Source of the DNA: a virus
Direction: 5' to 3' (one strand)
DNA length: 40,781 nucleotides
Virus genome (UHGV): UHGV-0177491
Within the stretch, counting starts at the first letter, position 1. Each line of letters starts with the position of its first letter. Both the position numbers and the translations under genes were made by a program. Shown here one piece after another: positions 7,141-29,497 of the stretch. The notes under the pieces are model-generated. The model ran no database searches and was not told the origin of the DNA. It was given only the letters and a program-made list of their open reading frames with translations.

Positions 7141-9837
7141 CTATTCCACAACATCATCTTCTATCAATTCAGCCTTATTTAGTTGTTCCTTAAGCTTATT
7201 CCATGCAGAATCCTCAGGCATCTGTACTCGCACAGAAACGAATTGATTAGCAGGAATGTCGATCGGGTCACCGTTCGAAACACCAGGTATGTCGTTACGT
7301 GCAAAAACGGGCGAGTTATCATGAGTGCGGTGAAACGTTTTCACCAACACAGATCCATCTTGGTTAACAACATAATCCAGCCAGATGAGCGGCTGCTTGT
7401 TTCGGTCCTGCGGTATTTCAAATCCACCATCAATCCCACCCCATGAAGCATCTGCATTCAGACCTACGCAACCCTCAATCAGATATTCACCCAATGCCAG
7501 CCGTGTGACGGTTACCCCATCTGATTCGCGATTTGTTTCACTACTACCGTCTGAGAAAATCTTCACAACCGGAGAGGCTTTTTTGATGAAACCACTTGAA
7601 TCGACGGTCGTGTTCAGCGACGACCATGCCTCAGCCCAGCCTGCGTTACCTGCGCGAATAGCATCGCCTGCGTAGCGGAAGAACAGTTTTGATGTTGTGG
7701 ACATGAATATCTGCAACACACGGTTTTTTGCATATCCTGACTCCCATAATGCTCCGTTACCTGTTCCTTCTGGCTGCCAGTTTGTCTTCCCACCTGCTTC
7801 TCCTATACTTACACCAGTAGACCAGTCTCCAGCAAATTCTGGAAGATTTGGTGAGTTAGGTGAGCGAATTGATACATCAACCAGACCAGGGGATCCGAGA
7901 ATCGACATGCTGCGGGAGGACACCTTAGTAAAAGAGTTGTACCCGCCGTTTTTGGAAATCCTTCCTGTATAATTATTAGCCCTGTTGGTTCCATTAACTG
8001 TAATTTCCCAGGTATCGCCGTTGATGAAGTCGATCTGCAATATGCAGTATGCTGGCAGTGTCATCTGTCCTGGCGCAGATGGCCCACCTTCAAACAGTGG
8101 CATATCCTGTTCAAGATATGTCACATATCTACCTGCATCTGTATTCCGCAAATAGTCACAAATAGCTTGTGCCGATGTAAATAGCGCAATACCATCAGCC
8201 GGGTTTACAGGGTGACGGCCAGCGTTAATCACCCTTCCGCGAGGGTTAAATAACTGTGATGCGGCATTGGATAGCGGACTCATGTCTACTGTTCCAGGTT
8301 CATTAGATGGACAGTTAGCGCGAATGATGTTTAAAGTCCTATAATTTGATCCGCCCCCATTGCCATAGCGAATAGACTGTAGAAGATACAATTCCTCAGA
8401 GCCAGAAATATCACAAGACTGCACCCCCTCATTTTCAGTGGAGTAAACACTCTTCCCTGAATAACTATCCCAGTATGTTTTGAAATCTGCAGGTGACAGC
8501 AGGTACTGACCTAATTCTGAACCAGAATGGCTGTACTCAATATAACCCTGCAACCCTGCGAAAGTATTTCCAGATCCCGCCGTGGTAGATGCACCAATAC
8601 CAGCAAATATCCGTTGAGAACCAAGAGCGACACCCTGCCGTTTTGGTTTACCGGCTCCGCGACCTCCAACATTTGCATCAACCGTAATAGTCCCCATTGG
8701 ACTATAAGATCCTTCTATAAGGCTGTTAATATCCAGTGTGTTAAAGATATTGGATACACCTGTCTCAACATCAAAAATTTTCGGCCAACCCATGTCCGCG
8801 TTTTCGTATAGCAGGGTATTACCAAAACCACTGAACTGATATCGCACTCCAAGTTTGGGTGATTCCGTGAAGTTTGTGATCTGCGTTTTATCAGCTAGCG
8901 TGCGCGGGTCTCCGATAGGGTAAATTCTGATAGTGCGGGATGGGCTGTACGGCAGTAGAATATAGCGCTGCCCTGCTTTTCTGTAAACGTGGATGCCTTC
9001 TGGTGCACCAACGTTATTCGGAAAATGAAGACGTGTTACCAATGCTCCTGTTGCCCAGTCATGCACCGTAACCCATACCGATGCGGGGTTTAGCGTCTGC
9101 CAGCCGATGTATACCATTCCATCATTGCTGTCTATGTAAATCCCCTGAAATCCCATGGTCGTATAACCATACTGACCTTTAAGATCTGCGGTAATCTCAT
9201 TGTCTATGATGCTGAATTCTAATTTCCAGTTCAGCGGCCTACGCGTACCACTGACATGTCTGGAAATATGAGACAGGTAGCTTTTAACCCCGCCTGCGAT
9301 AATGTATCTATCTTTGATCTCAGTAACAATTCCAGTTGCAACTGGAGTGCATTTATAGACGCCGCCGTTTATTCTAATAAAATTGGTTCCTGTTAGATTA
9401 TCCCCAATGGCAACGTCTTTGCTACTATTCTTAAACGTCCCATTACCTAAGTCAGTAACAAGCAATGCCCCTTCTACATATTTCAATGACTGATCAGGGT
9501 CATACTTCAGCACATTAGGAAAATAGAACTGCTTAGCACCATATGCATCATAAACAGCCATAGAATGGCCTTGCACAGTTACGAACTTGGCTATTTGCCC
9601 GTTATATACCGGGTAACCAGCAGCGTTAATGATGATTGGTTGCGAAACAGGAACGTGAGAACCGTCTTCATTCTCAACATAAACCTGAATCCGGTTTTCA
9701 GGATTTACCGGGTCAGTGTCAATTTTACCGATATAAATTCTGCCATTGGCATTTGCTTTAAACGAGCGAGCTAAAGTAAATAAGTTACTTGGTTGTGAAA
9801 CGACAACGTTGTATGATTGATTTGGCATAATAAACAT
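7141..9837 (-). CDS. Tailspike protein: P22-type head-binding domain plus unrecognised receptor-binding region
   Basis: N-terminal about 110 aa ([54 protein letters not shown]...[13 protein letters not shown]...NVLKYDPDQ) matches the P22 gp9 head-binding domain as recalled. The remaining about 780 aa are not recognised. Confidence 0.85.
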
Positions 9838-9850
9838 TCCGGAGAAAATA

Positions 9851-10354
9851 ATGAGTAAGAGACGTCACGAGGTAGTAACTCGGGAGCGCCTTATGGAGGT
9901 TCTAGTTTACAATAAAGAAACAGGAATTTTCACCTGGAAAAAGAAATTAAGCGCCAGAGGCGCTGTTGGTAAAGCTGCTGGCACAATCACTCCTTGTGGG
10001 TATAACGCAATTAGTATTGATGGCGTAAGATATTTTGCACATAGACTTGCCTGGCTGTATGTATATGGCGAATGGCCAAAACAAGAGATTGACCACATTG
10101 ATAGAAACAGAAGAAATAACGCAATCTCAAACCTTAGAGATGTTAGCAGGGTCGTAAATGCGTTAAATGTCGGACCTCGAAATAGCAATACTGGAATCAA
10201 GGGGGTAACTTTCTGTCAAGCCAGAAATCAATGGCAAGCTCAGATACATCTCTCAGGTAAAAACATAACTCTTGGGAGATTCAACACCATTGATGAGGCA
10301 GCTATAGCTTATAAGGCAGCAAACATGGTTGCTGACCATCTGTTGGGGCTGTAA
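9851..10354 (+). CDS. HNH homing-type endonuclease with AP2-like DNA-binding domain
   Basis: HNH motif region [22 protein letters not shown]-terminal [43 protein letters not shown] resembles AP2 domains of phage HNH endonucleases. Divergent from the tailspike start, about 13 bp apart. Confidence 0.8.
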
Positions 10355-10482: not shown

Positions 10483-10764
10483 TCAATCGACAGGAAACGC
10501 CGTGAAATTTAGCAGGTGTTGTAGTGCCTTAACGCCTTCAGAATTGTAACGGAACGCCTCTACCTGTTTGCTGGAGTGCGACGATTTATCCAGAAAGAAC
10601 TTCCCGTACCGCTCAGTTTTGAGGTTGTTTGCGTTAGCAATGCGACCAATCTTGTTGGCTGTTACTCCAAGATTCTCTGCAACCTCCCTTGCTGAGTAGT
10701 AATGCTCTTCTATTGCCGGAAGAGGTATTCTAGCTAATGCGCCCTTCCTTCTTAAGACTGGCAA
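10483..10764 (-). pseudogene. Possible antirepressor (ant) 5' remnant downstream of arc
   Basis: 93-codon ORF with no in-frame ATG (track start is TTG overlapping arc). Sits where ant lies in P22 immI; the rest of that position is occupied by the opposite-strand HNH gene. Confidence 0.3.
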
Positions 10765-11105: not shown

Positions 11106-11762
11106 ATGAAAGTGCAGACTTTAGAGTTCCCATACGGTGAAGTCGAGTTCACCAGAGATGAGTATATCGATGCGTCAACACTAACCGTTCAAATGAACCG
11201 ATGGAGATTTGATAACGGTCTTCAACCAAGAAATCTTGCTCAGATACTGAAAACGGATGACTGCAAAGACTTCATGCGTGTTTGTGAAGAGGAGACTGGT
11301 ATTATTCCGTTAAAAACAACGAGAGGAAGGAATGGGAAAACGTGGCTAAGTCTCCATCTGGCGGTGTATGTCGCCGAGCAGTACAGCACTTATTTCCACT
11401 TTCTCGTCATTGATCGTTTTATCACCCAGAGACAGGTCGAGTTGCGAAACATTGGTGCGGCAAGTTTTGTGGAGCTTAACGCAGCAGTTAGTCGGATGCT
11501 TGAGCGTACAGAAGGTAGGATTGGTCATAGTGGTCATTTCATTCAGGTTGCAAAGGTGGTTAAGGAATCGATAGATATCCGTGAAGTTACCGGGTTTGAT
11601 ACCTGGGATTCTCAGGATGCAAAAACCAACCAGTTGCGCAGCGAGATACAGAAGTCTCTTGTTCAGGCTCTTGATATGGAGTTTGTCAACTCGTGGGATG
11701 AGCTGAAAGAGACGATACCGCGAGTTGTGCGTAAATGCGCTGAGAAGATTGCAAGAGCTTAA
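11106..11762 (+). CDS. KilA-N domain-like protein (218 aa)
   Basis: Segment KTTRGRNGKTWLSLHLAVYVAEQYSTYFHFLVIDRF fits the KilA-N/APSES-type pattern as recalled. Occupies the position where mnt/sieA lie in P22. Confidence 0.5.
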   Translation: MKVQTLEFPYGEVEFTRDEYIDASTLTVQMNRWRFDNGLQPRNLAQILKTDDCKDFMRVCEEETGIIPLKTTRGRNGKTWLSLHLAVYVAEQYSTYFHFLVIDRFITQRQVELRNIGAASFVELNAAVSRMLERTEGRIGHSGHFIQVAKVVKESIDIREVTGFDTWDSQDAKTNQLRSEIQKSLVQALDMEFVNSWDELKETIPRVVRKCAEKIARA

Positions 11763-11783
11763 AAAATGATGAGGGTTACCAAT

Positions 11784-12269
11784 ATGAAAAAGGCACTGTT
11801 AATTATCCCGTTTCTGCTGGTTGGATGTGCAAAAGTAAGTGACTATCAGGCAAATTGCGAACAACGCTATCAAAAGCTTAGCGATATGGCCACTTGCCTT
11901 GATGCCAGCGTGAAGAGCGACTCACGCATGGCGTCAGCACCAACACCTAAACTGTATGTCCTTGCTGCGAAGATGCTCGGGCAAGGTGTCGATGAAGGCA
12001 AGATAAGTAACGCGCAGGCAAGACTTGAGCTTCAGAATCTTTATGTTCAATTGCAAGCCCAAGAACAAGCCCAGCAAATAGCGCAAAGCCAGGCATTTCA
12101 GCAGGCTTTATTGAATTATCAGGCTTTAAACACAATGCAAGCGATCGAGCAAAAAGCCAGACAGCCTGTTATAACTCAACCTTACCCAACGCGTGTTGAC
12201 ACCTATACAAACTGCAATTCAGGGTTTGGAAATACAGTCACATGCAACAGTAGCAGTAACATCAGATAA
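11784..12269 (+). CDS. Lipoprotein (signal peptide with lipobox LLVGC), Gln-rich
   Basis: MKKALLIIPFLLVGC: type II signal peptide and lipobox. GAGGG SD upstream of ATG at 11784 (track ORF begins at 11766). No family recognised. Confidence 0.65.
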   Translation: MKKALLIIPFLLVGCAKVSDYQANCEQRYQKLSDMATCLDASVKSDSRMASAPTPKLYVLAAKMLGQGVDEGKISNAQARLELQNLYVQLQAQEQAQQIAQSQAFQQALLNYQALNTMQAIEQKARQPVITQPYPTRVDTYTNCNSGFGNTVTCNSSSNIR

Positions 12270-12289: not shown

Positions 12290-12367
12290 ATGAACAGAGA
12301 CATGCTGAATCTTGCGTTCTACATATTTGGCTTTTGCACGTTCCTTGTGCTTGAAAAACTATTCTGA
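12290..12367 (+). CDS. Possible 25-aa hydrophobic peptide
   Basis: GGAGG then ATG at 12290; MNRDMLNLAFYIFGFCTFLVLEKLF. Overlaps the convergent ejection-protein gene end by 9 nt. Very short, so weak. Confidence 0.2.
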   Translation: MNRDMLNLAFYIFGFCTFLVLEKLF

Positions 12368-14752
12368 CAACGCATCAGACTTGGCGCCCTGAGTAAGGGC
12401 GTTAATGGCCTTTTGCGCCTGCTGTATGGCTTTCTCAAACGCTGTTGAGCCGCGTGGGGTGTTTGCCATTCGTAGCATTGCATTTCTGAATGGCTCGCTC
12501 TCATAGGCGCGAGCGAGAAGTCCGTAGCTTACTGTTGCGCCAGTTGTCAACTGATTCATTGCCGTACCATACCAAATAATGAACGGGATGGTTTGTTGTC
12601 CTGTTGGTGTTGTTACTGCCGCTTTTGCAGCCTGCTGCGTGGATTGCAGGTAGTTTTTCAATCCTTTCAGATAAGCAGCTTCCTGCCCTTTAAATGTGAT
12701 GCCAGTCTGGTTTTGCAGGATGTTAAGCTGCCGAAGGAACTGATCAGGAGATCCACCAGATTTCTCCATCGCCTTCCCAATGATGCCATTGCGCATTTGC
12801 GCCCTGCCAACACGACCAACTGAGTTATACAGCGCCTTAATTTCAGATTTGTTCTTGCTGAATAGCATGTTATTGACAACTTCCGGCGTCAGATCGCCTT
12901 TCATGAGAACATTCTTCAGCCTGGTGTTCTTTAGTTTCGCCGCTTCGTCAGCGTAGACGGCATTGGCCTGCTGGTATTTACGGAGAGTATCGTTGCCAAG
13001 ATTCTGACCAATGGCACCATTGATATCGCCAGTCATTGCCTTGTAAACGCGCTGAATGGCGGCATCGGAACGGTTTGGTAACACTGGTCGCTCACCCTTC
13101 ACGTCCATTCTGAACTGGCTGCGCAGATCGCTTAATTGCTTCAAATCCAGATTGACCGGACCATCAGGACCAGCATTGCGAACAAGCTCATCACGATATG
13201 ACTGAAGTTTTGAAATCGTCTCGTTATCAGCGACCTTACCAAGCTTCTGCAGATTAGATATTTCTGTATCAATCTGCTGAATTGCTCGCACAGGCTGAAT
13301 GTTTACTCCAGCCATAGCATTCTGAACCTGCTCCAGTCTATTACCGGCAGCACGACGAATTCCTGATGTTTTCGCTTTAAGGCTGTCAATAACAACCGCT
13401 GGATCATACTCACCGAATTTATCAGCAAATCTCTGCACCAACTGGCTTCTCGCTTCCTGTTGCGTTGCTCTCATTCTGCTTGTGCCAGCAAGAGGGATAT
13501 TTTCTGCTGTCGTTTGCGCCATTTTTCCGACGCGGGAAGTAGGCTGTAACAGGTCTGTGGTGTGCAGGGGCACCCCTTCACGCTCTGCAAATCTGATAGC
13601 TTGCTGCGCTTCTGGTGCAATAGCACCACGAACGCCACGATAAGCAGCGCCTAATCCACGCCCGGCAGCGTTAATAGCACCGCCAGCCAGCACGCCAACG
13701 CCTAAATCGGTAGCGAGTGCTTCCGCATCATCTTTCGCACTATTTGCAGCAAGTGATCCAACTGCGTTTTCTGCTAGAAGGCGAGTTGCCCCCTGAGCAA
13801 TTCGACCAGCAAGTGTTGGTGCCTGTACCGCCACTCTCTCAACGCCAGCAGGAGTGAGGTAAGGCAATGCTTCAGCAAATACCCTTCCCTCTGTTGTTTG
13901 TGGAGTCAGCGCGCCTTGCTGAAGGCCAAAGTCCTGCTCTAATCCCTGCGTTGTTACTCGTGGCGCTGGTTGATATGTACCATCTCCAATGCCGAGTTTA
14001 CCGCCAGCCCAAGCCGCCGCGCTTGCTACAGCATCAGTGAGTTCAGCAGGTATGTTCGCTACGTTGATTCCTGCCTGTAGTAAGCCGCGCCCTGTTTCAG
14101 CAAATCCATTACCAAGGTCAGACATTATTCCGTCTTGTTGCTGAACAGGTTTCGGCGCGACAGAACTTACGGGTTGAGGTGGCTGCTGACTGGCTGCCTG
14201 CTGCTCAATCTGAGCAAATGGATTGTTTGGGTCTGACTGCACACCTGATGCAGATACTTGTTCGGATGACTGTACTTCCAGTTGTGCAAACGGGTTGTTA
14301 GGGTCTTGCTGAGGATGCACCTTTGCAGAGGTGGCGCGCTGTTCGACTGTTGAGTCTGTCACCGGGTCACCCGTCCATTGAGCAAAGCGATCATCAACGT
14401 AACCGCGGCCCTCAGGCCCCGGAGTATATTCACCACGCTTTGCCTTCATGACGTTGCCTGGACCGTCGTGATAAGCCTGAAGAGCGTCACGCCAATTACC
14501 AAACTGCTGGTACATCTTTGCCAGATAGCGCGCGCCAGCGTCAGCCTGATATTCGGGGTTTTGCATTTGCTCATCGGTATAACCCATATCACGCCATGTC
14601 CCAGGCATGACCTGAGTCAATCCTACAGCCCCGGCGGAGCTTACTGCGGCAGGGTTGTAAGAAGACTCCTTGGCACCCAGTGCAGTCATCAACCCTTCTG
14701 GCACACCGTAACGTGCGCCAGCCTGCTCTAACAAATCACGGTAATTAGCCAT
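12359..14752 (-). CDS. Ejection/internal virion protein (gp16 position) with N-terminal lytic transglycosylase domain
   Basis: N-terminus GAKESSYNPAAVSSAGAVGLTQVMPGTWRDMGYT...AGARYL is an SLT-type motif; 797 aa; last gene of the ejection-protein trio. Confidence 0.7.
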   Translation of the reverse strand: MANYRDLLEQAGARYGVPEGLMTALGAKESSYNPAAVSSAGAVGLTQVMPGTWRDMGYTDEQMQNPEYQADAGARYLAKMYQQFGNWRDALQAYHDGPGNVMKAKRGEYTPGPEGRGYVDDRFAQWTGDPVTDSTVEQRATSAKVHPQQDPNNPFAQLEVQSSEQVSASGVQSDPNNPFAQIEQQAASQQPPQPVSSVAPKPVQQQDGIMSDLGNGFAETGRGLLQAGINVANIPAELTDAVASAAAWAGGKLGIGDGTYQPAPRVTTQGLEQDFGLQQGALTPQTTEGRVFAEALPYLTPAGVERVAVQAPTLAGRIAQGATRLLAENAVGSLAANSAKDDAEALATDLGVGVLAGGAINAAGRGLGAAYRGVRGAIAPEAQQAIRFAEREGVPLHTTDLLQPTSRVGKMAQTTAENIPLAGTSRMRATQQEARSQLVQRFADKFGEYDPAVVIDSLKAKTSGIRRAAGNRLEQVQNAMAGVNIQPVRAIQQIDTEISNLQKLGKVADNETISKLQSYRDELVRNAGPDGPVNLDLKQLSDLRSQFRMDVKGERPVLPNRSDAAIQRVYKAMTGDINGAIGQNLGNDTLRKYQQANAVYADEAAKLKNTRLKNVLMKGDLTPEVVNNMLFSKNKSEIKALYNSVGRVGRAQMRNGIIGKAMEKSGGSPDQFLRQLNILQNQTGITFKGQEAAYLKGLKNYLQSTQQAAKAAVTTPTGQQTIPFIIWYGTAMNQLTTGATVSYGLLARAYESEPFRNAMLRMANTPRGSTAFEKAIQQAQKAINALTQGAKSDALSE

Positions 14753-16096
14753 TTACTGCCCCAAAGATGGAAGATATCCGTAGCGATTAATGAAGTCGAT
14801 TGACAGCTCGGGGTGCTGCTTCAGGTAATCTATAGAAGCCTGAGGCGCTTCCACTCGCTTGATACCGTTTTGCTGAACGTACTGACCAACCGCCTCATTA
14901 CGCTTCTGGTTGAGCGTGTTCAGGATGACGCCAGCGTTGCGACGAAAGGACTCCTCGCTCTGCGAGTTCTGCAGCGAACCAACAGCCTGGTCGAGCTTTT
15001 TGCCCTCGGCATCAGAAAGTGCGCCCATGCCTCGCATGGCCTGAACCGCTGTCAGGAATGCTTGGGATTTAAAGGTATCAAGTCGCGCCTGAGTGTCTGC
15101 AGCTTGTGAGCCTGGAACGTTGGGGATTGCTCCACGTAAGCCTGTAATGCTCTTAAGTGCAGGAGAATTAACGACATCGTTCAGAGTGGACATGCTGGTT
15201 GTGATGGTGTTTATGCCGTCTTTGTAGCCATCATTTAGCTCTTGCTGCTTCTGCTGCAACTTCTGGTTGTTGGCTGCTATGCGGCTCTGTATTTCCTGTC
15301 GCTTTATGTCGTTATTTTCTGATAATAGCATCCGGTCAAGGCGCTTATTTTCGTTGTTAATGCGGTTTGTTTCTGCGTCCAGATTAATGCGCTGCTGACC
15401 TAAATTCGCCTGAATATCTTGCCCGCGCATTGTGATTGCCTGATTCCGGGCGGCGGTTTGCGAGTTCAGATCCTGACCGCGCATTGTCACCTGGCGACCC
15501 TGCATTTTATCCTGTAGGTCAAAGTATTTTTCGGGGCCGAGACTGTTAATCCCCAGGTGATCGACAAATTCGCCGAACTGCTGCGGGTTCTGTTGGTACA
15601 TCTGAGCGACGTCCTGAGGATTAACGCCAACACGAGCTAACTCACCGGCGTTGTTTTGCAGCCATGATTGCATTGCTTCTGGAGAAGATGACGCAAGACG
15701 TGCGCCAGCCGCTAAGGTGCCGATAGAATTACGCTGGTCTTCATCAATGAATCCCATGCCTTTACGAACGGATTCAATCTGTTCTGGATATTGAGCAGCC
15801 AACTGACGCAAAGCACCGCGATCACCAGACGCATAAGCATTAGCGTATGCCTGCTGAAATTCTTTCTGCCGCTGAGCCTGCTTTTCCTGCTGAAACACCC
15901 CCGCAATACCTGAAAGGCCTTGCAAAGCAGTCAGCCCAACGTTATTTGCACCTGAGCGAGTCAGTTCATTGTTTTCGCGGATCAGACCAAGCGTTGCGTT
16001 AATGTCGCCTGCCTTTGGCGCATTCTCGTTTTGCGTACCGATTCCACCCAGAAAACCACCAGAATTAATACCCTGTTGCCAAGTAGCCATGATCAC
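14753..16096 (-). CDS. Ejection protein (gp20 position), 447 aa
   Basis: Position and size analogous to P22 gp20; coiled-coil and Gln-rich. Confidence 0.6.
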   Translation of the reverse strand: MIMATWQQGINSGGFLGGIGTQNENAPKAGDINATLGLIRENNELTRSGANNVGLTALQGLSGIAGVFQQEKQAQRQKEFQQAYANAYASGDRGALRQLAAQYPEQIESVRKGMGFIDEDQRNSIGTLAAGARLASSSPEAMQSWLQNNAGELARVGVNPQDVAQMYQQNPQQFGEFVDHLGINSLGPEKYFDLQDKMQGRQVTMRGQDLNSQTAARNQAITMRGQDIQANLGQQRINLDAETNRINNENKRLDRMLLSENNDIKRQEIQSRIAANNQKLQQKQQELNDGYKDGINTITTSMSTLNDVVNSPALKSITGLRGAIPNVPGSQAADTQARLDTFKSQAFLTAVQAMRGMGALSDAEGKKLDQAVGSLQNSQSEESFRRNAGVILNTLNQKRNEAVGQYVQQNGIKRVEAPQASIDYLKQHPELSIDFINRYGYLPSLGQ

Positions 16097-16099
16097 CCC

Positions 16100-16795
16100 T
16101 TAAAACAACGAGCCAAGCAGGCCAAGTCCGCCGCCAATTGCCGCACCTAATCCAGTGCCAAGTCCGGGGACAATAGAGCCAAGAGCAGCGCCAGTCATAG
16201 CCCCTGAAGCTCCGCCGCTAATTGCTGTCTGAAGACCTGATGGTTTATTGGCATTAGCAGCGGCAAGGGCCGCACTTTGCTGCGAAATCTGACTCATGTT
16301 GTTGGCATATGTCTGCCCGGCGTTTGCCTGACCTTGCAGTGCGCCAAGACCAATGTTTGCCAGGTTGTTGTAGTTGTTCATCTGACCAGATAGCCACTGC
16401 TGACCAAGCGTTGGCGCGATTGTTGCTAACTGATTACCGGTTGCAGTGGAACCTAATCCACCTGTTGCTTCCGCTGCCGCCAGACTCTGATAGCGAGCCT
16501 GATCGGCAAGGTCTTTATACTGCTGAGAGTTGTAATACTGGTTAAGCGCCTGACCTTGCCCCTGAAGAGAGGAAAGATTCTGCAATTGTGATACGTACTG
16601 CTTAGCGAGTGGCGTGAATGGAGCAAGGTTTTTCATGATCGTCTGCCACTGCTGATTTTGCATGTCTGCGGCATACTTCTGAGCTTCTGCTGCATACTTT
16701 GCGCTTTTATCAGAGCTACCACCTTTCCCGCCTTTTTCAGGGAAATAAGGTTCCTCGACGCGCAGTTTTCTGCCCAGCTTAAATGCATATAACAT
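16100..16795 (-). CDS. Ejection protein (gp7 position), 231 aa
   Basis: Position and size analogous to P22 gp7; Gly-rich hydrophobic C-terminus. Confidence 0.6.
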   Translation of the reverse strand: MLYAFKLGRKLRVEEPYFPEKGGKGGSSDKSAKYAAEAQKYAADMQNQQWQTIMKNLAPFTPLAKQYVSQLQNLSSLQGQGQALNQYYNSQQYKDLADQARYQSLAAAEATGGLGSTATGNQLATIAPTLGQQWLSGQMNNYNNLANIGLGALQGQANAGQTYANNMSQISQQSAALAAANANKPSGLQTAISGGASGAMTGAALGSIVPGLGTGLGAAIGGGLGLLGSLF

Positions 16796-16797
16796 GG

Positions 16798-17253
16798 CTA
16801 TCTCCCGTGATTCAGGAAGTCGATTAGTTCTTCGCGTGTGGCGCTGTAAAACGTCACGTCATCCACGCCTTTGAAGTATTTCTTGATGGTTCCTACACGC
16901 TTAAGGCCAATCATTGCGCAGTACATCTGCCCGTGGCGGAATTTGCGTGCAGCGAACGATGTGACGCACTGAACGGTGGTGTTAGTCAGAATGTATCGCC
17001 AGAACGCCAGCCCGATTTCCTTGCTGAAGCCACGAATCTCTGGCAGGTACATGGCGTGGCAATCGAATGTAAGCGGCTGAATCTCCTGATAGTAAACAAT
17101 GCCGCCAAACTGCCCGTGCACGTTCACCTCAAAGTAACGGCATTCAGGTTTGTAGTCATATCCATCACCGTTGTTGCTCCCGGCAATAATGTCAGGGTGA
17201 TTCCCGACTGTTTCGATCAGGTCGATGTTTCGCGTTGGTTTGAATGTAATCAT
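16798..17253 (-). CDS. gp14-like virion protein, 151 aa
   Basis: Position between the tail needle and ejection proteins, as in P22. Confidence 0.55.
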   Translation of the reverse strand: MITFKPTRNIDLIETVGNHPDIIAGSNNGDGYDYKPECRYFEVNVHGQFGGIVYYQEIQPLTFDCHAMYLPEIRGFSKEIGLAFWRYILTNTTVQCVTSFAARKFRHGQMYCAMIGLKRVGTIKKYFKGVDDVTFYSATREELIDFLNHGR

Positions 17254-17954
17254 CAGTCAATAAGCCCATGCAATCTAAGTGCTGTTTCAAGCGCAAGAAT
17301 ACGCTGCCGCGCCTCCTCCAAACCTGTAGCGAGATCCGCGACTTCGGATTGTGTGTACGTAGTGCCGACAGTGTATGACTGGTTTGCGTCGAATGAGCCA
17401 AGAAGTGGCGTACCTGTGGCCGCAGTCCATCCGGTCTGCCTTGCTCCAACAACCTGAATTCCATCAACTGAATATGATGTTTTTACATCCAGCGGTGACG
17501 CAAGAGACTGCGATTCGGTTACAGTTTTCGATACGTAATCACTCTTAATGTCAGATACATCACTTTCTACGCCATCCAGTCTTTGGTCAACAGTGACCAG
17601 ATGCGCCTGAATATCGATAACCTCGTCAAGCAAGTAATCAACATCGCTACGCAGTACGACTATCTTCCCTTCGGCGGTTGTTAACCTGACCTCAAGGAGA
17701 TTTATCGCTTTTGTGTTTGCGGTGATTCTTGCGTCGTGATCTGCCAGATCAACGTCCTGTTTATCGTTTTTCACCTGAGCATCGTAAGCGCCCCGACCAG
17801 CCTCGTTGGCCTTGCTGGCAATTGCGCCGACATCAGCCCCCTGATTAATGACATACAGCAGGTAAGACTGCGAGAAGATATTGCGTGGAAGGATTGATGT
17901 GTCGAGCCGTGTAGCCTGAATGATTACCGGCTCATTGAGATTCGAATCAGCCAT
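17253..17954 (-). CDS. Tail needle protein (P22 gp26-like), 233 aa
   Basis: Colinear with P22 gp26 as recalled: MADxxLNxPVxIQATRLD...SYLLYVI...[24 protein letters not shown]...ALRxHGLID. Confidence 0.9.
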
Positions 17955-19372
17955 TACTCAACCCTTATCTTGCAGCCTGACAGAGTTACAGGTGACTTCG
18001 TGATAACGCGCAATTTGAAGCCAATGTTTTTCCTGATGCGCCCGACTCGCTTCCACAAAACACGTTTGTCATAAACGAACGGTTCATTCTGCTCAATCAT
18101 CTGCTCACGCCCCCAGTTGATGCCGTCAGCGGTTGCAGAGATGAACAGGCGGTCAGCGTACTGAGCGACACCAGTCGATGATTCAACTTCCAGATCAAAA
18201 CATCTGCCGTTATCCGCTTTGATGAGTGGTGTAAACAACTGGTGTTCTTGCTGTAGCCCATACTGGCTGCTGGTATCGAACTGCAATTTGCCAGTAACCG
18301 ATTCCAGCTTATCGCCGCACGTTATCTGATTGCCTTCATAAATGAAGTCGATAGCGCGGTACACATCGTCATACAGGCCTGTTTTCAACACACACCATTG
18401 TGGGCCATTGGCGCTTGAAGATGCGTCGTATACGAGGACATGGCGCGGAAGATGGATAATCAGCAACTCATGAGCATCAAATCGCAGCGATTCCATCACA
18501 CCATCAGCCAGTTCATCAGCAGTGTAGGAACGAAGGATTTTCTCAATGCTCGCGCTGGCGATTGGTGATACCTGACCGGAGCCGATGATGTATACAGACG
18601 GAGCACCTGTTGCCGGATTGCTGATAAACGCATAGGAATCAGCAAACGGCGTTTTGCAGTAAGTTCCGGCAATGCCTTTCTGCACCATCAGTGATGGCTG
18701 TGCGACATACAAAGCGGCACCAACGGTGGTTGCGCCCGTCAGGGAGAAATATTCAATAGTCGATGAACCAAAGCAGACGATGAAGTCTCGCCATGTCCCG
18801 ATACCGATGATGCCGTCCGGCTGAGACTCGGCACGATATTGTGCGCTGTAACGGTCAGGATGCGATTCGTCTTCAAGGTCAGTGATAAACCATGAATCAG
18901 TGCCGTCTTTTGACCACGCATAACGCCCACGTAAGCGCGTAATGTCACGAACAGAACCTAACTCATACTGCGTGAATCCGCTGTATGTAGGCCAGTTTGA
19001 GACGGTTTTAACCGTGCCATCATAGCGATACTCGACCAGTTGACCATTAACGCCTACAGCCTGAGATGTCCGACCATGCGCCATTGATACACGACCACTT
19101 CCGGCAACATCGCCGACTTCGCTTTCGCCTTTGTAGAGTTTTCCGCCACACACGCGATAAACAGCATTCTGCGCCATGTTGTACTCGACGCCGCGAGATA
19201 CACCGTTCACATCAGAGCGTTTGGCAATGCCCGGGAATGAGCGAAGATATCCGCTGCTGTTGAGTATTTCTTTGGGTGTAGCCAACATATTCGCTGGCAG
19301 ATAGTCGATATAGTCGGCGTTTCTGAAATCTTTGCCGACACCTTTCATAAGCGGAAGTTGCTGAATCGGCAT
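17954..19372 (-). CDS. Tail hub/accessory protein (P22 gp10-like), 472 aa
   Basis: Same length as P22 gp10 and same gene order. Confidence 0.75.
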
Positions 19373-19381
19373 TTATTCACC

Positions 19382-19843
19382 TCACGTACTCGGATCATCT
19401 TTCTCGATGTAAAACCGATTCCACGTAAACGCGCTTTTTAACCCCGCCCCGCGAGGCATGTCATTTCGCCGCTCAAGTGGTGGTATTTTGGTTAAAGCGA
19501 TACAGATTGTCTGATATGCACTGTCAGCAGCGGTAAGGAGAGCGTCTGACGGCTGAATGACGTTATCCATGCACACTTGCACAGCGAGTTTCAAAGCGAC
19601 GCCATCATTTGCCCATGCTGGGATGCCTGAATCATCGTCAGGTAACGGCATGATGCCGTTTTCTGTATCAGCAAACTGATATCCAAGCTCGATACCTTTC
19701 GCCTGCCATGCTGCCATCATGTCTTCGAGGTCATTAATGGCATCTTCAATTGCCTGAGGGTCGGCATCTGTCAACGTGGCATTGGAATACAGCCCGGCTT
19801 TTCGTAAAGCCTTAAGAACGAGATCACCCTTCGTTTTTGCCAT
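19382..19843 (-). CDS. Tail adaptor/head completion protein (P22 gp4-like)
   Basis: N-terminus MAKTKGDLVLKALRKAGL resembles P22 gp4; position after coat. Confidence 0.7.
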   Translation of the reverse strand: MAKTKGDLVLKALRKAGLYSNATLTDADPQAIEDAINDLEDMMAAWQAKGIELGYQFADTENGIMPLPDDDSGIPAWANDGVALKLAVQVCMDNVIQPSDALLTAADSAYQTICIALTKIPPLERRNDMPRGAGLKSAFTWNRFYIEKDDPST

Positions 19844-28559: not shown

Positions 28560-29009
28560 TTATTTCAGGCATTGCGTCCTGATGTATTCCTGCAGGTAGT
28601 TAACCTGCGCGGTTATCCTGTCGATTCCACTTCGGAGACGGTAATAATTGAGTTCAGCATCTGCTGTAAGTCTTGGGCTTTCTCCATCGCCCATGCCGCT
28701 GGCTCCGGTCGTTGACTTTGCACAGGTGGCGGCGACTTGCAGGCGCTTACGACCAGCAGAAACATCAGCACGGAGACTTTCGATAGTCGCATTAGCATCA
28801 GCAAGCTCCTTTGTGTATCTGGCGTCAAGTTCTGCTACATCACGTTGACGCTTCTGCATGTCAGCGATTGTGGATGCGGCCTTATCGCGCTGCTCTTTGT
28901 AGGCGATGGCGTTATCACGGTAATGATTGACCGCCCACGACAGGCAGACGATGATGCAGATAACCAGAGCTGAGATAATCGCGGTTAACCTGCTCATTGC
29001 TGCCCCCAC
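28560..29009 (-). CDS. rz: Rz-like i-spanin
   Basis: 149 aa with N-terminal transmembrane segment and coiled coil; follows the endolysin; contains an embedded lipoprotein ORF. Confidence 0.8.
28613..28798 (-). CDS. rz1: Rz1-like o-spanin lipoprotein embedded in Rz
   Basis: Signal peptide with lipobox VVSAC followed by the Pro-rich segment [16 protein letters not shown], as in lambda Rz1. Confidence 0.7.
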
Positions 29010-29497
29010 AAACAGACTTCACGCTCAATCTCACGACGAGTCATCAGCCCTTTCCATTGCTTACCGCCAGCGTATGTCCAGCGCCGTAGCTGATCACATG
29101 CGCCTTTGATATCGCCCTGGTTTATTTTGCGAAGAAGAGTCGATGTTCTGAAATTACCTGCACCCACGTTGTAGACGAACGAGTAAAGAGCGCCGCGCGT
29201 TGTTTCCGGTATATCGACTTTGATGTACGGGTTAATTTGTCTGGCGACCGTGGCGAGGTCTTTATTCAGGAGGGCTTTGCATTCTGCTTCGGTATACGTT
29301 TTACCGAGCATGATGTCTTTTCCGGTGTGTCCGTGACATACGGTCCATACACCAACAATATCTTTGTATGGTATGTAGCTGACACCTTCCAGACCATCGT
29401 TACCACTCGGTCCAGTGATTAACACAGATGCTATAGCAATAGCCCCGCCACTTATCGCCGCTATTACGCTATTTCGTAGTGTCGGTGACATTGCCAT
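28994..29497 (-). CDS. SAR endolysin (T4-lysozyme-like muramidase with signal-arrest-release N-terminus)
   Basis: Weakly hydrophobic Gly/Ala-rich N-terminus [21 protein letters not shown] followed by a lysozyme-like domain with catalytic E/D/T spacing. Confidence 0.8.

What the first reader, a model, noticed from the sequence alone, without database searches (positions are those of the whole stretch)
12359..14752. Ejection protein carrying a lytic transglycosylase domain
The gene in the gp16 position is 797 aa and begins with an SLT-type motif (ES..N...S.AGA.GLTQVMP.T). This implies local peptidoglycan digestion during DNA delivery. The P22 prototype as I recall it does not have this domain in this protein.
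Basis: partly seen in the sequence, partly recalled or inferred. Interest (0 to 1): 0.4.

Follow-up and report, generated by a model that had tools for sequence, protein, structure and literature searches.

The report
P22-like ejection protein with transglycosylase head
The third DNA-ejection protein of this P22-like phage carries a cell-wall-cutting (lytic transglycosylase) domain at its front end that phage P22 itself lacks; public databases already annotate this architecture, but nobody has tested it in this phage group.

Summary
ORF 12359-14752 (- strand, 797 aa) sits in the gp16 position (gp4-gp10-gp26-gp14-gp7-gp20-gp16). It has three parts:

- **SLT/GH23 domain, residues 1-127.** Pfam PF01464, E=2.8e-25. 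Glu29 aligns with the catalytic Glu478 of Slt70 and Glu37 of T7 gp16. The AlphaFold model (pLDDT 92) matches Slt70, MltC and MltE.
- **Linker, residues 128-207.** Rich in Q, P and S, with no predicted secondary structure.
- **gp16 body, residues 208-797.** 95% identical to Sf6 gp13 and 34% to P22 gp16.

P22 gp16 and Sf6 gp13 have no SLT domain.

The most likely role, inferred by analogy with T7 gp16, is local peptidoglycan cleavage after ejection into the periplasm. This would let the gp20/gp16 channel cross the wall.

It is not new. The same 797-aa protein occurs in over 1000 database sequences, named "lytic transglycosylase domain-containing protein". It is also in phages IME10, Sf101 and others, and in about 1.3% of complete E. 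coli genomes. A 2022 review nevertheless states that P22-like phages lack this activity.

One side observation may be worth more. A duplicated short motif marks the N-termini of many gp16-family proteins, and the SLT domain sits differently relative to it in different phage groups.

The parts
12359..14752 (-). Complete gene for the 797-aa gp16-type ejection protein with an N-terminal SLT domain
   Evidence: ORF list. Pfam and PHROG hits. 95.4% nt identity over the full length to an unannotated ORF in phage IME10.
14372..14752 (-). SLT / GH23 family-1 lytic transglycosylase domain, residues 1-127
   Evidence: PF01464 covers residues 7-110, E=2.8e-25. phmmer to Slt70 gives E=5e-10. The AF2 model has pLDDT 91.8. 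Foldseek TM 0.75-0.79 to Slt70, Pseudomonas Slt and LtgA; 0.74 to MltC, 0.73 to MltE and 0.75 to the T7 gp16 core protein.
14666..14668 (-). Codon of Glu29, the predicted catalytic acid (E-S motif)
   Evidence: Aligns with Slt70 Glu478 and T7 gp16 Glu37. Invariant in a 16-sequence alignment. Coordinates checked.
14612..14623 (-). Motif II, G-L-T-Q (residues 44-47)
   Evidence: G44 and Q47 are invariant in alignment A1. Coordinates checked.
14462..14476 (-). Motif III, A-Y-H-D-G (residues 93-97; A-Y-N-x-G in most SLT domains)
   Evidence: A93, Y94 and G97 are invariant in A1. Coordinates checked.
14132..14371 (-). Q/P/S-rich linker, residues 128-207, with no predicted secondary structure
   Evidence: Composition Q16 P11 S10 of 80 residues. 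No secondary structure in the AF2 model, which has low confidence. The mosaic joint with Sf6-type and Sf101-type genes lies at its C-terminal end, nt 618-676 of the gene.
14276..14305 (-). Twin motif copy 1, DPNNPFAQLE (residues 150-159)
14204..14233 (-). Twin motif copy 2, DPNNPFAQIE (residues 174-183)
12362..14131 (-). gp16 body, residues 208-797: helical, no cysteine, no strong transmembrane segment
   Evidence: 95% identical to Sf6 gp13 residues 76-665. 34% identical to P22 gp16 residues 60-601. Homologues carry PF26808. Hydropathy and composition.
14753..16096 (-). gp20 homologue (periplasmic channel ejection protein), immediately upstream
   Evidence: PF16928, E=1.7e-74.
16100..16795 (-). 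gp7 homologue (outer-membrane / extracellular channel ejection protein)
   Evidence: PF25688, E=5.8e-130.
19382..19843 (-). gp4 tail adaptor homologue. P22 gp4 is the virion protein reported to hydrolyse peptidoglycan.
   Evidence: PF11650, E=6.9e-39. The P22 gp4 role is as described in PMC5380687.
28994..29497 (-). Separate endolysin of the lysis cassette. It shows that the SLT domain is not the phage's lysis enzyme.
   Evidence: PF00959 Phage_lysozyme, E=1e-45. The adjacent Rz gene (28560-29009) matches PF03245.

Best explanation
The gene encodes the last of the three internal ejection proteins of a P22-like (Lederbergvirus-type) phage or prophage. A family-1 (Slt70-like, GH23) lytic transglycosylase domain of about 127 residues is joined by an 80-residue flexible linker to an otherwise ordinary Sf6-type gp16 body.

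Proposed mechanism:
1. The protein is packaged in the head. It has no signal peptide and no cysteine.
2. On infection it is expelled through the tail and the gp7 channel into the periplasm.
3. There the tethered SLT domain cleaves MurNAc-GlcNAc bonds non-hydrolytically, producing 1,6-anhydroMurNAc ends. This locally widens the peptidoglycan mesh.
4. The gp20 dodecameric barrel can then cross the wall and dock onto the gp16 body, which forms the cytoplasmic-membrane part of the DNA channel.

Shown here: domain identity, intact catalytic motifs, predicted fold, gene position, modular (mosaic) origin, and a substitution pattern consistent with purifying selection. Inferred: packaging, ejection, enzymatic activity and its timing. 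By analogy with T7 gp16, the activity is probably conditionally rather than absolutely required, since near-identical bodies work without it in Sf6.
For: **Domain.**
- PF01464 matches at E=2.8e-25. NCBIfam lytic-transglycosylase models hit residues 3-106.
- Glu29 aligns with Slt70 Glu478 and T7 gp16 Glu37.
- E29, S30, G44, Q47, A93, Y94 and G97 are invariant among 16 homologues of 37-47% identity.
- The E-S motif is kept in the gp16-position proteins of Skarpretter, Kc259 and IME_EC2, in T7 gp16, and in representative P0288.
- The AF2 model has pLDDT 91.8. Foldseek gives TM 0.73-0.79 to Slt70, Slt, LtgA, MltC and MltE, and 0.75 to the T7 core protein 9jyy_I.

**Ejection-protein identity.** Synteny and profile hits, and body homology to P22 gp16 and Sf6 gp13.

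**Topology.**
- A 2026 in-situ cryo-EM preprint (10.64898/2026.09.03.749273) places the N-terminal region of P22 gp16 against the gp20 plinth on the periplasmic face of the cytoplasmic membrane.
- It argues that gp16 enters the periplasm as a diffusible monomer, probably before gp20, and shows the gp20 barrel crossing the peptidoglycan layer.

**Selection.** Against Sf101, IME10 and E. coli VE-T9, the SLT module shows 12-13 synonymous versus 2-3 non-synonymous codon differences.

**Not an artefact.** The same 797-aa ORF is in a cluster of 1295 member sequences and many NCBI records, and the module is in 70 of 5426 complete E. coli genomes.

**Not the lysis enzyme.** A separate lysozyme and Rz cassette lies at 28560-29497.

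**Precedent.** The T7 gp16 N-terminal transglycosylase is needed for genome internalisation when peptidoglycan is highly cross-linked (review PMC8954989).
Against: - No enzymatic or virion-proteomic data exist for this protein or any Lederbergvirus homologue in the literature I could search.
- Sf6 gp13 is 95% identical in the body and lacks the domain, yet Sf6 is fully infectious. The domain therefore cannot be essential to the channel as such.
- Motif III reads AYHDG rather than the usual AYNxG.
- The domain is short, about 127 residues.
- The phage also has a gp4 homologue, the protein credited with peptidoglycan hydrolysis in P22, so the SLT activity could be redundant.
- The full-length structure could not be modelled (pLDDT 42).
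Confidence: 0.8

Rival explanations
1. The SLT domain is retained as a non-catalytic peptidoglycan-binding or anchoring module, or as a spacer. It would position gp16 at the wall without cutting it.
For: SLT-less gp16 bodies of 95% identity are functional in Sf6. Motif III deviates, with H95 where N is usual. No activity data were found.
Against: The catalytic Glu-Ser pair and the G-x-x-Q and A-Y-x-x-G motifs are invariant across 37-47%-identical homologues. The Glu-Ser pair and most of motifs II and III are also kept in the divergent phage alleles, apart from the weak match P0260. A binding-only module would not need Glu29. Differences from the closest alleles are mostly synonymous.
Confidence: 0.1
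2. The domain acts at the end of the cycle as an auxiliary endolysin, or is expressed from the prophage. It would not act at entry.
For: PHROG families that match the domain carry labels such as 'endolysin' (phrog_669).
Against: The domain has no signal peptide or SAR sequence. The gene lies inside the late virion-assembly operon, and its ATG directly follows the gp20 stop codon. A complete separate cassette of lysozyme, Rz and a likely holin ORF is present. The domain is fused to a protein whose homologues are packaged and ejected.
Confidence: 0.04
3. The long ORF is an artefact: a sequencing or assembly fusion of a separate SLT gene with gp16, or a decaying prophage gene.
For: Chimeric deletion products do exist in this family: gp7-gp16, gp20-gp16 and portal-gp16 ORFs.
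Against: The identical 797-aa architecture is found in isolated phages (IME10, phiKp_30), in about 70 complete E. coli chromosomes, and in a cluster of 1295 sequences. The same N-module is joined in frame to a different body in Sf101, Huey and Dewey. Most differences are synonymous.
Confidence: 0.01

Closest known systems
E. coli prophage proteins named 'lytic transglycosylase domain-containing protein' (797 aa); the unannotated ORF of phage IME10; the phiKp_30 'hypothetical protein'
   Same: Same length and architecture. The 797-aa E. coli proteins are 96-98% identical over the body. The IME10 ORF is 95.4% identical at nucleotide level over the full gene, and phiKp_30 is 93% identical over 92% of it. 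This is the same gene.
   Different: Only allelic differences. None of these proteins has been studied experimentally, as far as I could find.
Shigella phage Sf101 gp13 ('transglycosylase', 911 aa); Escherichia phages Huey, Dewey and APC_JM3.2
   Same: The N-module, residues 1-206 (SLT plus linker plus twin motif), is more than 99% identical in protein and 97-98% in DNA.
   Different: In Sf101 the body after residue 206 is of another type. It resembles P22 gp16 at first and then diverges, and the protein is 114 aa longer. In Huey, Dewey and APC_JM3.2 the DNA match also stops at nt 618, but their bodies were not examined. So the module has recombined onto different gp16 bodies.
Sf6 gp13 (665 aa) and P22 gp16 (609 aa), the studied P22-like ejection proteins
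   Same: The body is homologous: 95% identity to Sf6 gp13 and 34% to P22 gp16. The gene position is the same, and a Q/P-rich linker precedes the body.
   Different: Neither has an SLT domain, with no Pfam hit at E<=1. Their first 60-75 residues are unrelated short heads.
T7 gp16 (1318 aa), an internal virion protein with an N-terminal lytic transglycosylase
   Same: An N-terminal SLT domain on the last and largest ejection protein. 28% identity over 130 residues, with the catalytic Glu aligned. phrog_342 matches at E=3e-23. Structural match TM 0.75 to 9jyy_I. Presumably the same job.
   Different: The rest of the protein shows no detectable sequence similarity: the phrog_342 match is confined to profile positions 14-217 of 1235. 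[quoted passage not shown]
Gp16-position 'transglycosylase' proteins (977-1038 aa) of the virulent phages Skarpretter, IME_EC2 (Murrayvirus) and Kosakonia phage Kc259
   Same: Same gene order, with the 'transglycosylase' gene immediately before the tailspike gene. The SLT domain is 58-68% identical. The first ~75 residues of the body are similar.
   Different: The SLT domain sits between the two copies of the NxF(A/D)QF motif rather than before both. The C-terminal bodies are longer and unrelated by BLAST.
E. coli Slt70 C-terminal domain, MltC and MltE (GH23 family-1 lytic transglycosylases)
   Same: Same fold and catalytic motifs.
   Different: These are housekeeping periplasmic or lipoprotein enzymes with signal peptides and extra domains. 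The phage domain is a minimal version delivered by the virion.

Membership tests
SLT / GH23 family-1 lytic transglycosylase (Pfam PF01464) | Profile match above the curated threshold | tested here: met
   88.6 bits against a cut-off of 21.3, E=2.8e-25, residues 7-110.
SLT / GH23 family-1 lytic transglycosylase (Pfam PF01464) | Catalytic Glu in the E-S motif, at the position of Slt70 Glu478 | tested here: met
   Glu29-Ser30 align with Slt70 E478-S479 and with T7 gp16 E37. Both are invariant in A1.
SLT / GH23 family-1 lytic transglycosylase (Pfam PF01464) | Motifs II (G-L-M-Q) and III (A-Y-N-x-G) | tested here: met
   GLTQ at 44-47 and AYHDG at 93-97. G44, Q47, A93, Y94 and G97 are invariant. 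The N-to-H change at position 95 is shared with the Skarpretter, Kc259 and IME_EC2 alleles.
SLT / GH23 family-1 lytic transglycosylase (Pfam PF01464) | Goose-lysozyme-like all-helical fold | tested here: met
   Predicted only. AF2 pLDDT 91.8. Foldseek probability 1.00 and TM 0.73-0.79 to Slt70, Slt, LtgA, MltC and MltE.
SLT / GH23 family-1 lytic transglycosylase (Pfam PF01464) | Non-hydrolytic cleavage of peptidoglycan giving 1,6-anhydroMurNAc | not testable with these tools
   Needs a zymogram or muropeptide analysis.
P22 gp16-type ejection (DNA transfer) protein (PF26808, phrog_770) | Sequence homology to P22 gp16 / Sf6 gp13 over the body | tested here: met
   E=1e-76 and 34% identity to P22 gp16. 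95% identity to Sf6 gp13. phrog_770 E=3.7e-236. Near-identical homologues carry PF26808.
P22 gp16-type ejection (DNA transfer) protein (PF26808, phrog_770) | Position as last gene of the gp14-gp7-gp20-gp16 block of the late operon | tested here: met
   The order is the same as annotated in P22, Sf6 and Sf101.
P22 gp16-type ejection (DNA transfer) protein (PF26808, phrog_770) | Packaged in the virion and ejected into the cell, forming the cytoplasmic-membrane channel | not testable with these tools
   Known for P22 gp16. Inferred here from homology.
T7 gp16-like internal virion protein with lysin domain (phrog_342) | N-terminal lytic transglycosylase domain on the largest ejection protein | tested here: met
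T7 gp16-like internal virion protein with lysin domain (phrog_342) | Homology of the remaining ~1100 residues | tested here: not met
   The phrog_342 match covers only profile positions 14-217 of 1235. BLASTP, run against only the first 301 residues of T7 gp16, aligns only the SLT domain. The protein works like T7 gp16 at its N-terminus but is not a family member by sequence.

The most novel reading that the evidence does not exclude
P22-like phages exist as natural near-isogenic pairs, with (797 aa) and without (665 aa) a transglycosylase head on a 95%-identical gp16 body. This contradicts the published generalisation that the activity is absent from P22-like phages.

The most novel reading not excluded has three parts:
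- The SLT head is a mobile accessory that sets the host physiological range, for example infection of stationary-phase or highly cross-linked cells.
- It was grafted independently at different places relative to an ancestral twin short motif.
- That twin motif itself docks one gp16 onto two gp20 subunits, resolving the modelled 12:6 mismatch.
Probability: 0.25. Interest if true: 0.5.

Novelty: already known. Interest (0 to 1): 0.22.

Why it matters
This is a modest finding.

[quoted passage not shown] A sizeable minority of Lederbergvirus-type phages and prophages, and their virulent relatives, do carry it on gp16.
- **It offers a clean natural experiment.** The 797-aa and 665-aa alleles have the same body, so they can test whether wall cutting is needed for the P22-type trans-envelope channel. 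The reported peptidoglycan hydrolase of P22 is gp4 in the tail neck, a location outside the cell wall.
- **It exposes an annotation problem.** Thousands of SLT-less gp16 proteins carry the "lytic transglycosylase domain-containing" name.

Tried and rejected
- **Full-length AlphaFold2 without an alignment.** It gave a useless model, pLDDT 42. Only its absence of secondary structure in residues 128-207 was used, and with caution.
- **PDB sequence search.** It found nothing for the gp16 body. Only SLT-domain hits were returned.
- **Homologue search with the N-module, residues 1-208.** It returned only short or fragmentary SLT proteins, not the full-length fusions. Those sequences were useful only as an alignment for structure prediction.
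- **Tandem Repeats Finder.** It found no DNA repeat in the gene. The twin motif is visible only at protein level.
- **Casjens & Thuman-Commike 2011 and Casjens & Grose 2016.** These are the papers most likely to have described gp16 types. They are not held in the library, so I cannot say whether they already noted the SLT head.
- **VSe13.** I first took its 'lytic transglycosylase domain-containing protein' as a second SLT allele. It is a 665-aa Sf6-type protein with no SLT match at E<=1, so the name is over-propagated.
- **Internal restart at Met210 giving an SLT-less isoform.** Only a weak GGA lies upstream. I did not pursue it.
- **The 'amidase' label of phrog_6095 for the neighbouring ORF 11106-11762.** Pfam gives only a weak, sub-threshold KilA-N match. 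I do not treat this ORF as a second wall enzyme.
Full report
**Observation.** The window contains an ATG-initiated ORF at 12359..14752 on the minus strand, encoding 797 aa. Its ATG directly follows the TAA stop of the upstream gene, with a GGGG purine run a few bases before it. Pfam places an SLT domain (PF01464) at residues 7-110, with E=2.8e-25 and 88.6 bits against a cut-off of 21.3. NCBIfam lytic-transglycosylase models hit the same stretch.

**Context.** Reading along the minus strand, upstream of this gene lie:
- gp4, 19382-19843, PF11650
- gp10, 17954-19372, PF11134
- the needle gp26, 17253-17954, phrog_1219
- gp14, 16798-17253, PF11039
- gp7, 16100-16795, PF25688
- gp20, 14753-16096, PF16928

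This is the P22 order as annotated in P22, Sf6 and Sf101, so the ORF is in the gp16 position. The window as a whole is a mosaic Lederbergvirus-type genome. Over the first 25 kb its nearest isolated relatives are phiKp_30, Huey and Sf101, matching about 94% over roughly half of the query. A separate lysis cassette lies far away, with a PF00959 lysozyme at 28994-29497 and Rz at 28560-29009.

**Anatomy.** The protein has three parts.

- *Residues 1-127: a minimal family-1 lytic transglycosylase domain.*
  - Glu29 aligns without gaps to the catalytic Glu478 of E. coli Slt70 and to Glu37 of T7 gp16.
  - In an alignment with 15 homologues of 37-47% identity, E29, S30, G41, A42, G44, Q47, Y76, A93, Y94, G97 and P98 are invariant.
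  - With that alignment AlphaFold2 gives a confident model, pLDDT 91.8.
  - Foldseek matches the model to Slt70, Pseudomonas Slt, LtgA, MltC and MltE at TM 0.73-0.79, and to the T7 gp16 core protein (9jyy_I) at TM 0.75.
- *Residues 128-207: a Q/P/S-rich segment without predicted secondary structure.* It contains two copies of DPNNPFAQ(L/I)E.
- *Residues 208-797: the gp16 body.*
  - It is 95% identical to Sf6 gp13 residues 76-665 and 34% identical to P22 gp16 residues 60-601 (E=1e-76).
  - It is predicted to be helical (low-confidence model), has no cysteine, and has no strong transmembrane segment. P22 gp16 is described in the same way.

**P22 and Sf6 lack the domain.** P22 gp16 (609 aa) and Sf6 gp13 (665 aa) give no SLT match even at E<=1. 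Their N-terminal 60-75 residues are unrelated short heads followed by a Q/P-rich stretch.

**Modularity.**
- Nucleotides 1-618 of the gene are 97-98% identical to Sf101, Huey, Dewey and APC_JM3.2, where the DNA match ends at that point.
- Nucleotides 676-2394 are 92-95% identical to Sf6-type genes that lack the head.
- The joint therefore falls exactly at the linker/body boundary.
- In Sf101 the same head is fused to a body that starts like P22 gp16.
- Two further gp16-family cluster representatives, P0288 and P0260, have bodies only 32-34% identical. They also carry N-terminal SLT domains, at E=5.5e-20 and 1.3e-5.
- The virulent phages Skarpretter, IME_EC2 and Kc259 have 977-1038-aa 'transglycosylase' proteins in the same gene position.
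- The head is thus a recurrent but minority module. Among the 150 best representatives of 1076 gp16-body clusters, I found it in only three full-length clusters.

**Prevalence and prior knowledge.**
- The head occurs in 70 of 5426 complete E. coli genomes, always chromosomal.
- By comparison, 351 genomes have the Sf6-type body and 1243 have the gp7/gp14 marker.
- In the large protein collection the 797-aa form is abundant. One cluster alone has 1295 members, and NCBI names the form 'lytic transglycosylase domain-containing protein'.
- Sf101 gp13 has been annotated 'transglycosylase' since 2014, although the Sf101 paper does not discuss it.
- The architecture is therefore already known at the annotation level.
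- The searchable literature contains no study of it.
[quoted passage not shown] That statement is too general.

**Mechanism (inferred).** T7 gp16 sets the precedent. Its N-terminal transglycosylase is required for genome internalisation when peptidoglycan is highly cross-linked.

For P22, a 2026 in-situ cryo-EM preprint reports the following:
- The gp20 dodecameric barrel crosses the peptidoglycan layer.
- gp16 forms the cytoplasmic-membrane channel.
- AlphaFold3 predictions pairing the gp16 N-terminal region (residues 1-205) with the gp20 PP3 domain, the plinth on the periplasmic face of the cytoplasmic membrane, imply that the two interact.
- gp16 enters the periplasm as a diffusible monomer, probably before gp20.

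An SLT domain on an 80-residue tether at the N-terminus of such a protein is well placed to cut glycan strands before or while the gp20 barrel is threaded through the wall.

Further support and limits:
- Differences from the closest alleles are mostly synonymous, 12-13 versus 2-3 codons. This is consistent with a maintained function, although the counts are small.
- Because Sf6 works without the head, I expect the activity to be conditionally beneficial rather than essential.
- It may be partly redundant with gp4, which is credited with peptidoglycan hydrolysis in P22 and has a homologue here.

**Rivals.**
- A non-catalytic binding role is hard to reconcile with the invariant Glu-Ser pair.
- A role in lysis is unlikely. 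There is no export signal, the gene sits in the virion operon, and a complete lysis cassette exists elsewhere.
- An assembly artefact is excluded by the many independent occurrences.

**Side observation.** The two DPNNPFAQxE copies belong to a wider pattern.
- Of 114 full-length gp16-family representatives, 30 have a twin 7-mer (at least 6 of 7 identical) within their first 100 residues. It usually starts at residue 2-7 and the copies are 10-27 residues apart.
- Examples are NPFDQFD, FDPDAYL, KPWEKYA, LPEGFEV, DRFGGIP and GRNLFA.
- The same test finds 1 and 0 of 114 in two body control segments, and 0 of 114 in five shuffles.
- In the window/Sf101 type both copies follow the SLT domain. In Skarpretter, Kc259 and IME_EC2 the SLT domain lies between them, with copies at residue 3 and at about residue 185.
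- This suggests that the SLT head was grafted onto an ancestral twin-motif N-terminus at different points in different lineages.
- One untested idea is that the two copies each bind one gp20 subunit. The preprint models 12 gp20 to 6 gp16.

**Verdict.** It is already annotated widely but has not been studied experimentally in this phage group. Interest is low to moderate.

Noticed in passing
window 14204-14233 and 14276-14305 (- strand); proteins P0149, P0163, P0165, P0172, P0173 and others; L008, L009, L010: A duplicated short motif is a recurrent feature of gp16-family N-termini. Here it is DPNNPFAQL/IE, twice. 30 of 114 cluster representatives have such a twin, against 0-1 of 114 in body controls and 0 in shuffles. 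The motif sequence differs between lineages. The SLT domain lies before both copies in this window and in Sf101, but between the copies in Skarpretter, Kc259 and IME_EC2. It may be a docking motif, given the modelled 12 gp20 to 6 gp16.
   Followed up: partly
Proteins P0039, P0041, P0044 and others; L005 2722-4719 (Salmonella phage VSe13): Thousands of 665-aa Sf6-type gp16 proteins are named 'lytic transglycosylase domain-containing protein', yet they carry only PF26808. VSe13 and Sf6 gp13 have no SLT match at E<=1. The name has been propagated from the 797-aa form to SLT-less relatives.
   Followed up: yes
L003 4001-6394 (phage IME10, NC_019501 31064-33457): All three IME10 records leave the 797-aa gp16 gene unannotated, although it is 95.4% identical to the window gene over its full length.
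   Followed up: yes
window 11766-12269 (+): A 167-aa ORF with a lipoprotein-type signal (…LLVGC) and a Q-rich tail, matching phrog_6067 of unknown function. It is convergent with gp16, in the place where P22 has the superinfection-exclusion gene sieA. It is a candidate exclusion or moron lipoprotein.
   Followed up: partly
window 11106-11762 (+): A 218-aa ORF matching phrog_6095, which is labelled 'amidase' (lysis). Pfam shows only a weak, sub-threshold KilA-N match (E=0.0064). The PHROG label looks unreliable.
   Followed up: partly
window 9851-10354 (+) and 10483-10764 (-): An HNH_3 + AP2 homing-endonuclease-like ORF lies between the tailspike and the immI-like region. Next to it is a 93-aa ORF that matches only the C-terminal 80 residues of an anti-repressor family, so it is probably a remnant.
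   Followed up: no
Proteins P0265 (1043 aa) and P0147 (1386 aa): One gp16-family representative, P0265, carries a C-terminal PF18823 'InPase' domain (E=5e-56). Another, P0147, has a ~790-residue N-terminal extension with no Pfam match. Ejection proteins of this family apparently carry other cargo domains as well.
   Followed up: no
Proteins P0036, P0037, P0040 (782 aa), P0045, P0087 (767-769 aa), P0154 (748 aa): Chimeric ORFs join gp7 (PF25688), gp20 (PF16928) or portal (PF16510) N-terminal parts to a gp16 body. They are probably in-frame deletions in decaying prophages.
   Followed up: no
window 12359-14752 (-): The 797-aa protein contains no cysteine at all. Its most hydrophobic 19-residue window reaches only 1.36 on the Kyte-Doolittle scale. 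That hydropathy agrees with the description of P22 gp16 as membrane-associated without a clear transmembrane helix. The lack of cysteine would suit a protein that must unfold, pass the tail and refold in the oxidising periplasm.
   Followed up: partly
window 7141-9837 (-): An 898-aa tailspike. It has the conserved P22-type head-binding N-terminus (residues ~8-120). Its full length matches only phrog_20129, of unknown function, and its C-terminal ~180 residues resemble tail-fibre families. The receptor specificity is unknown.
   Followed up: no
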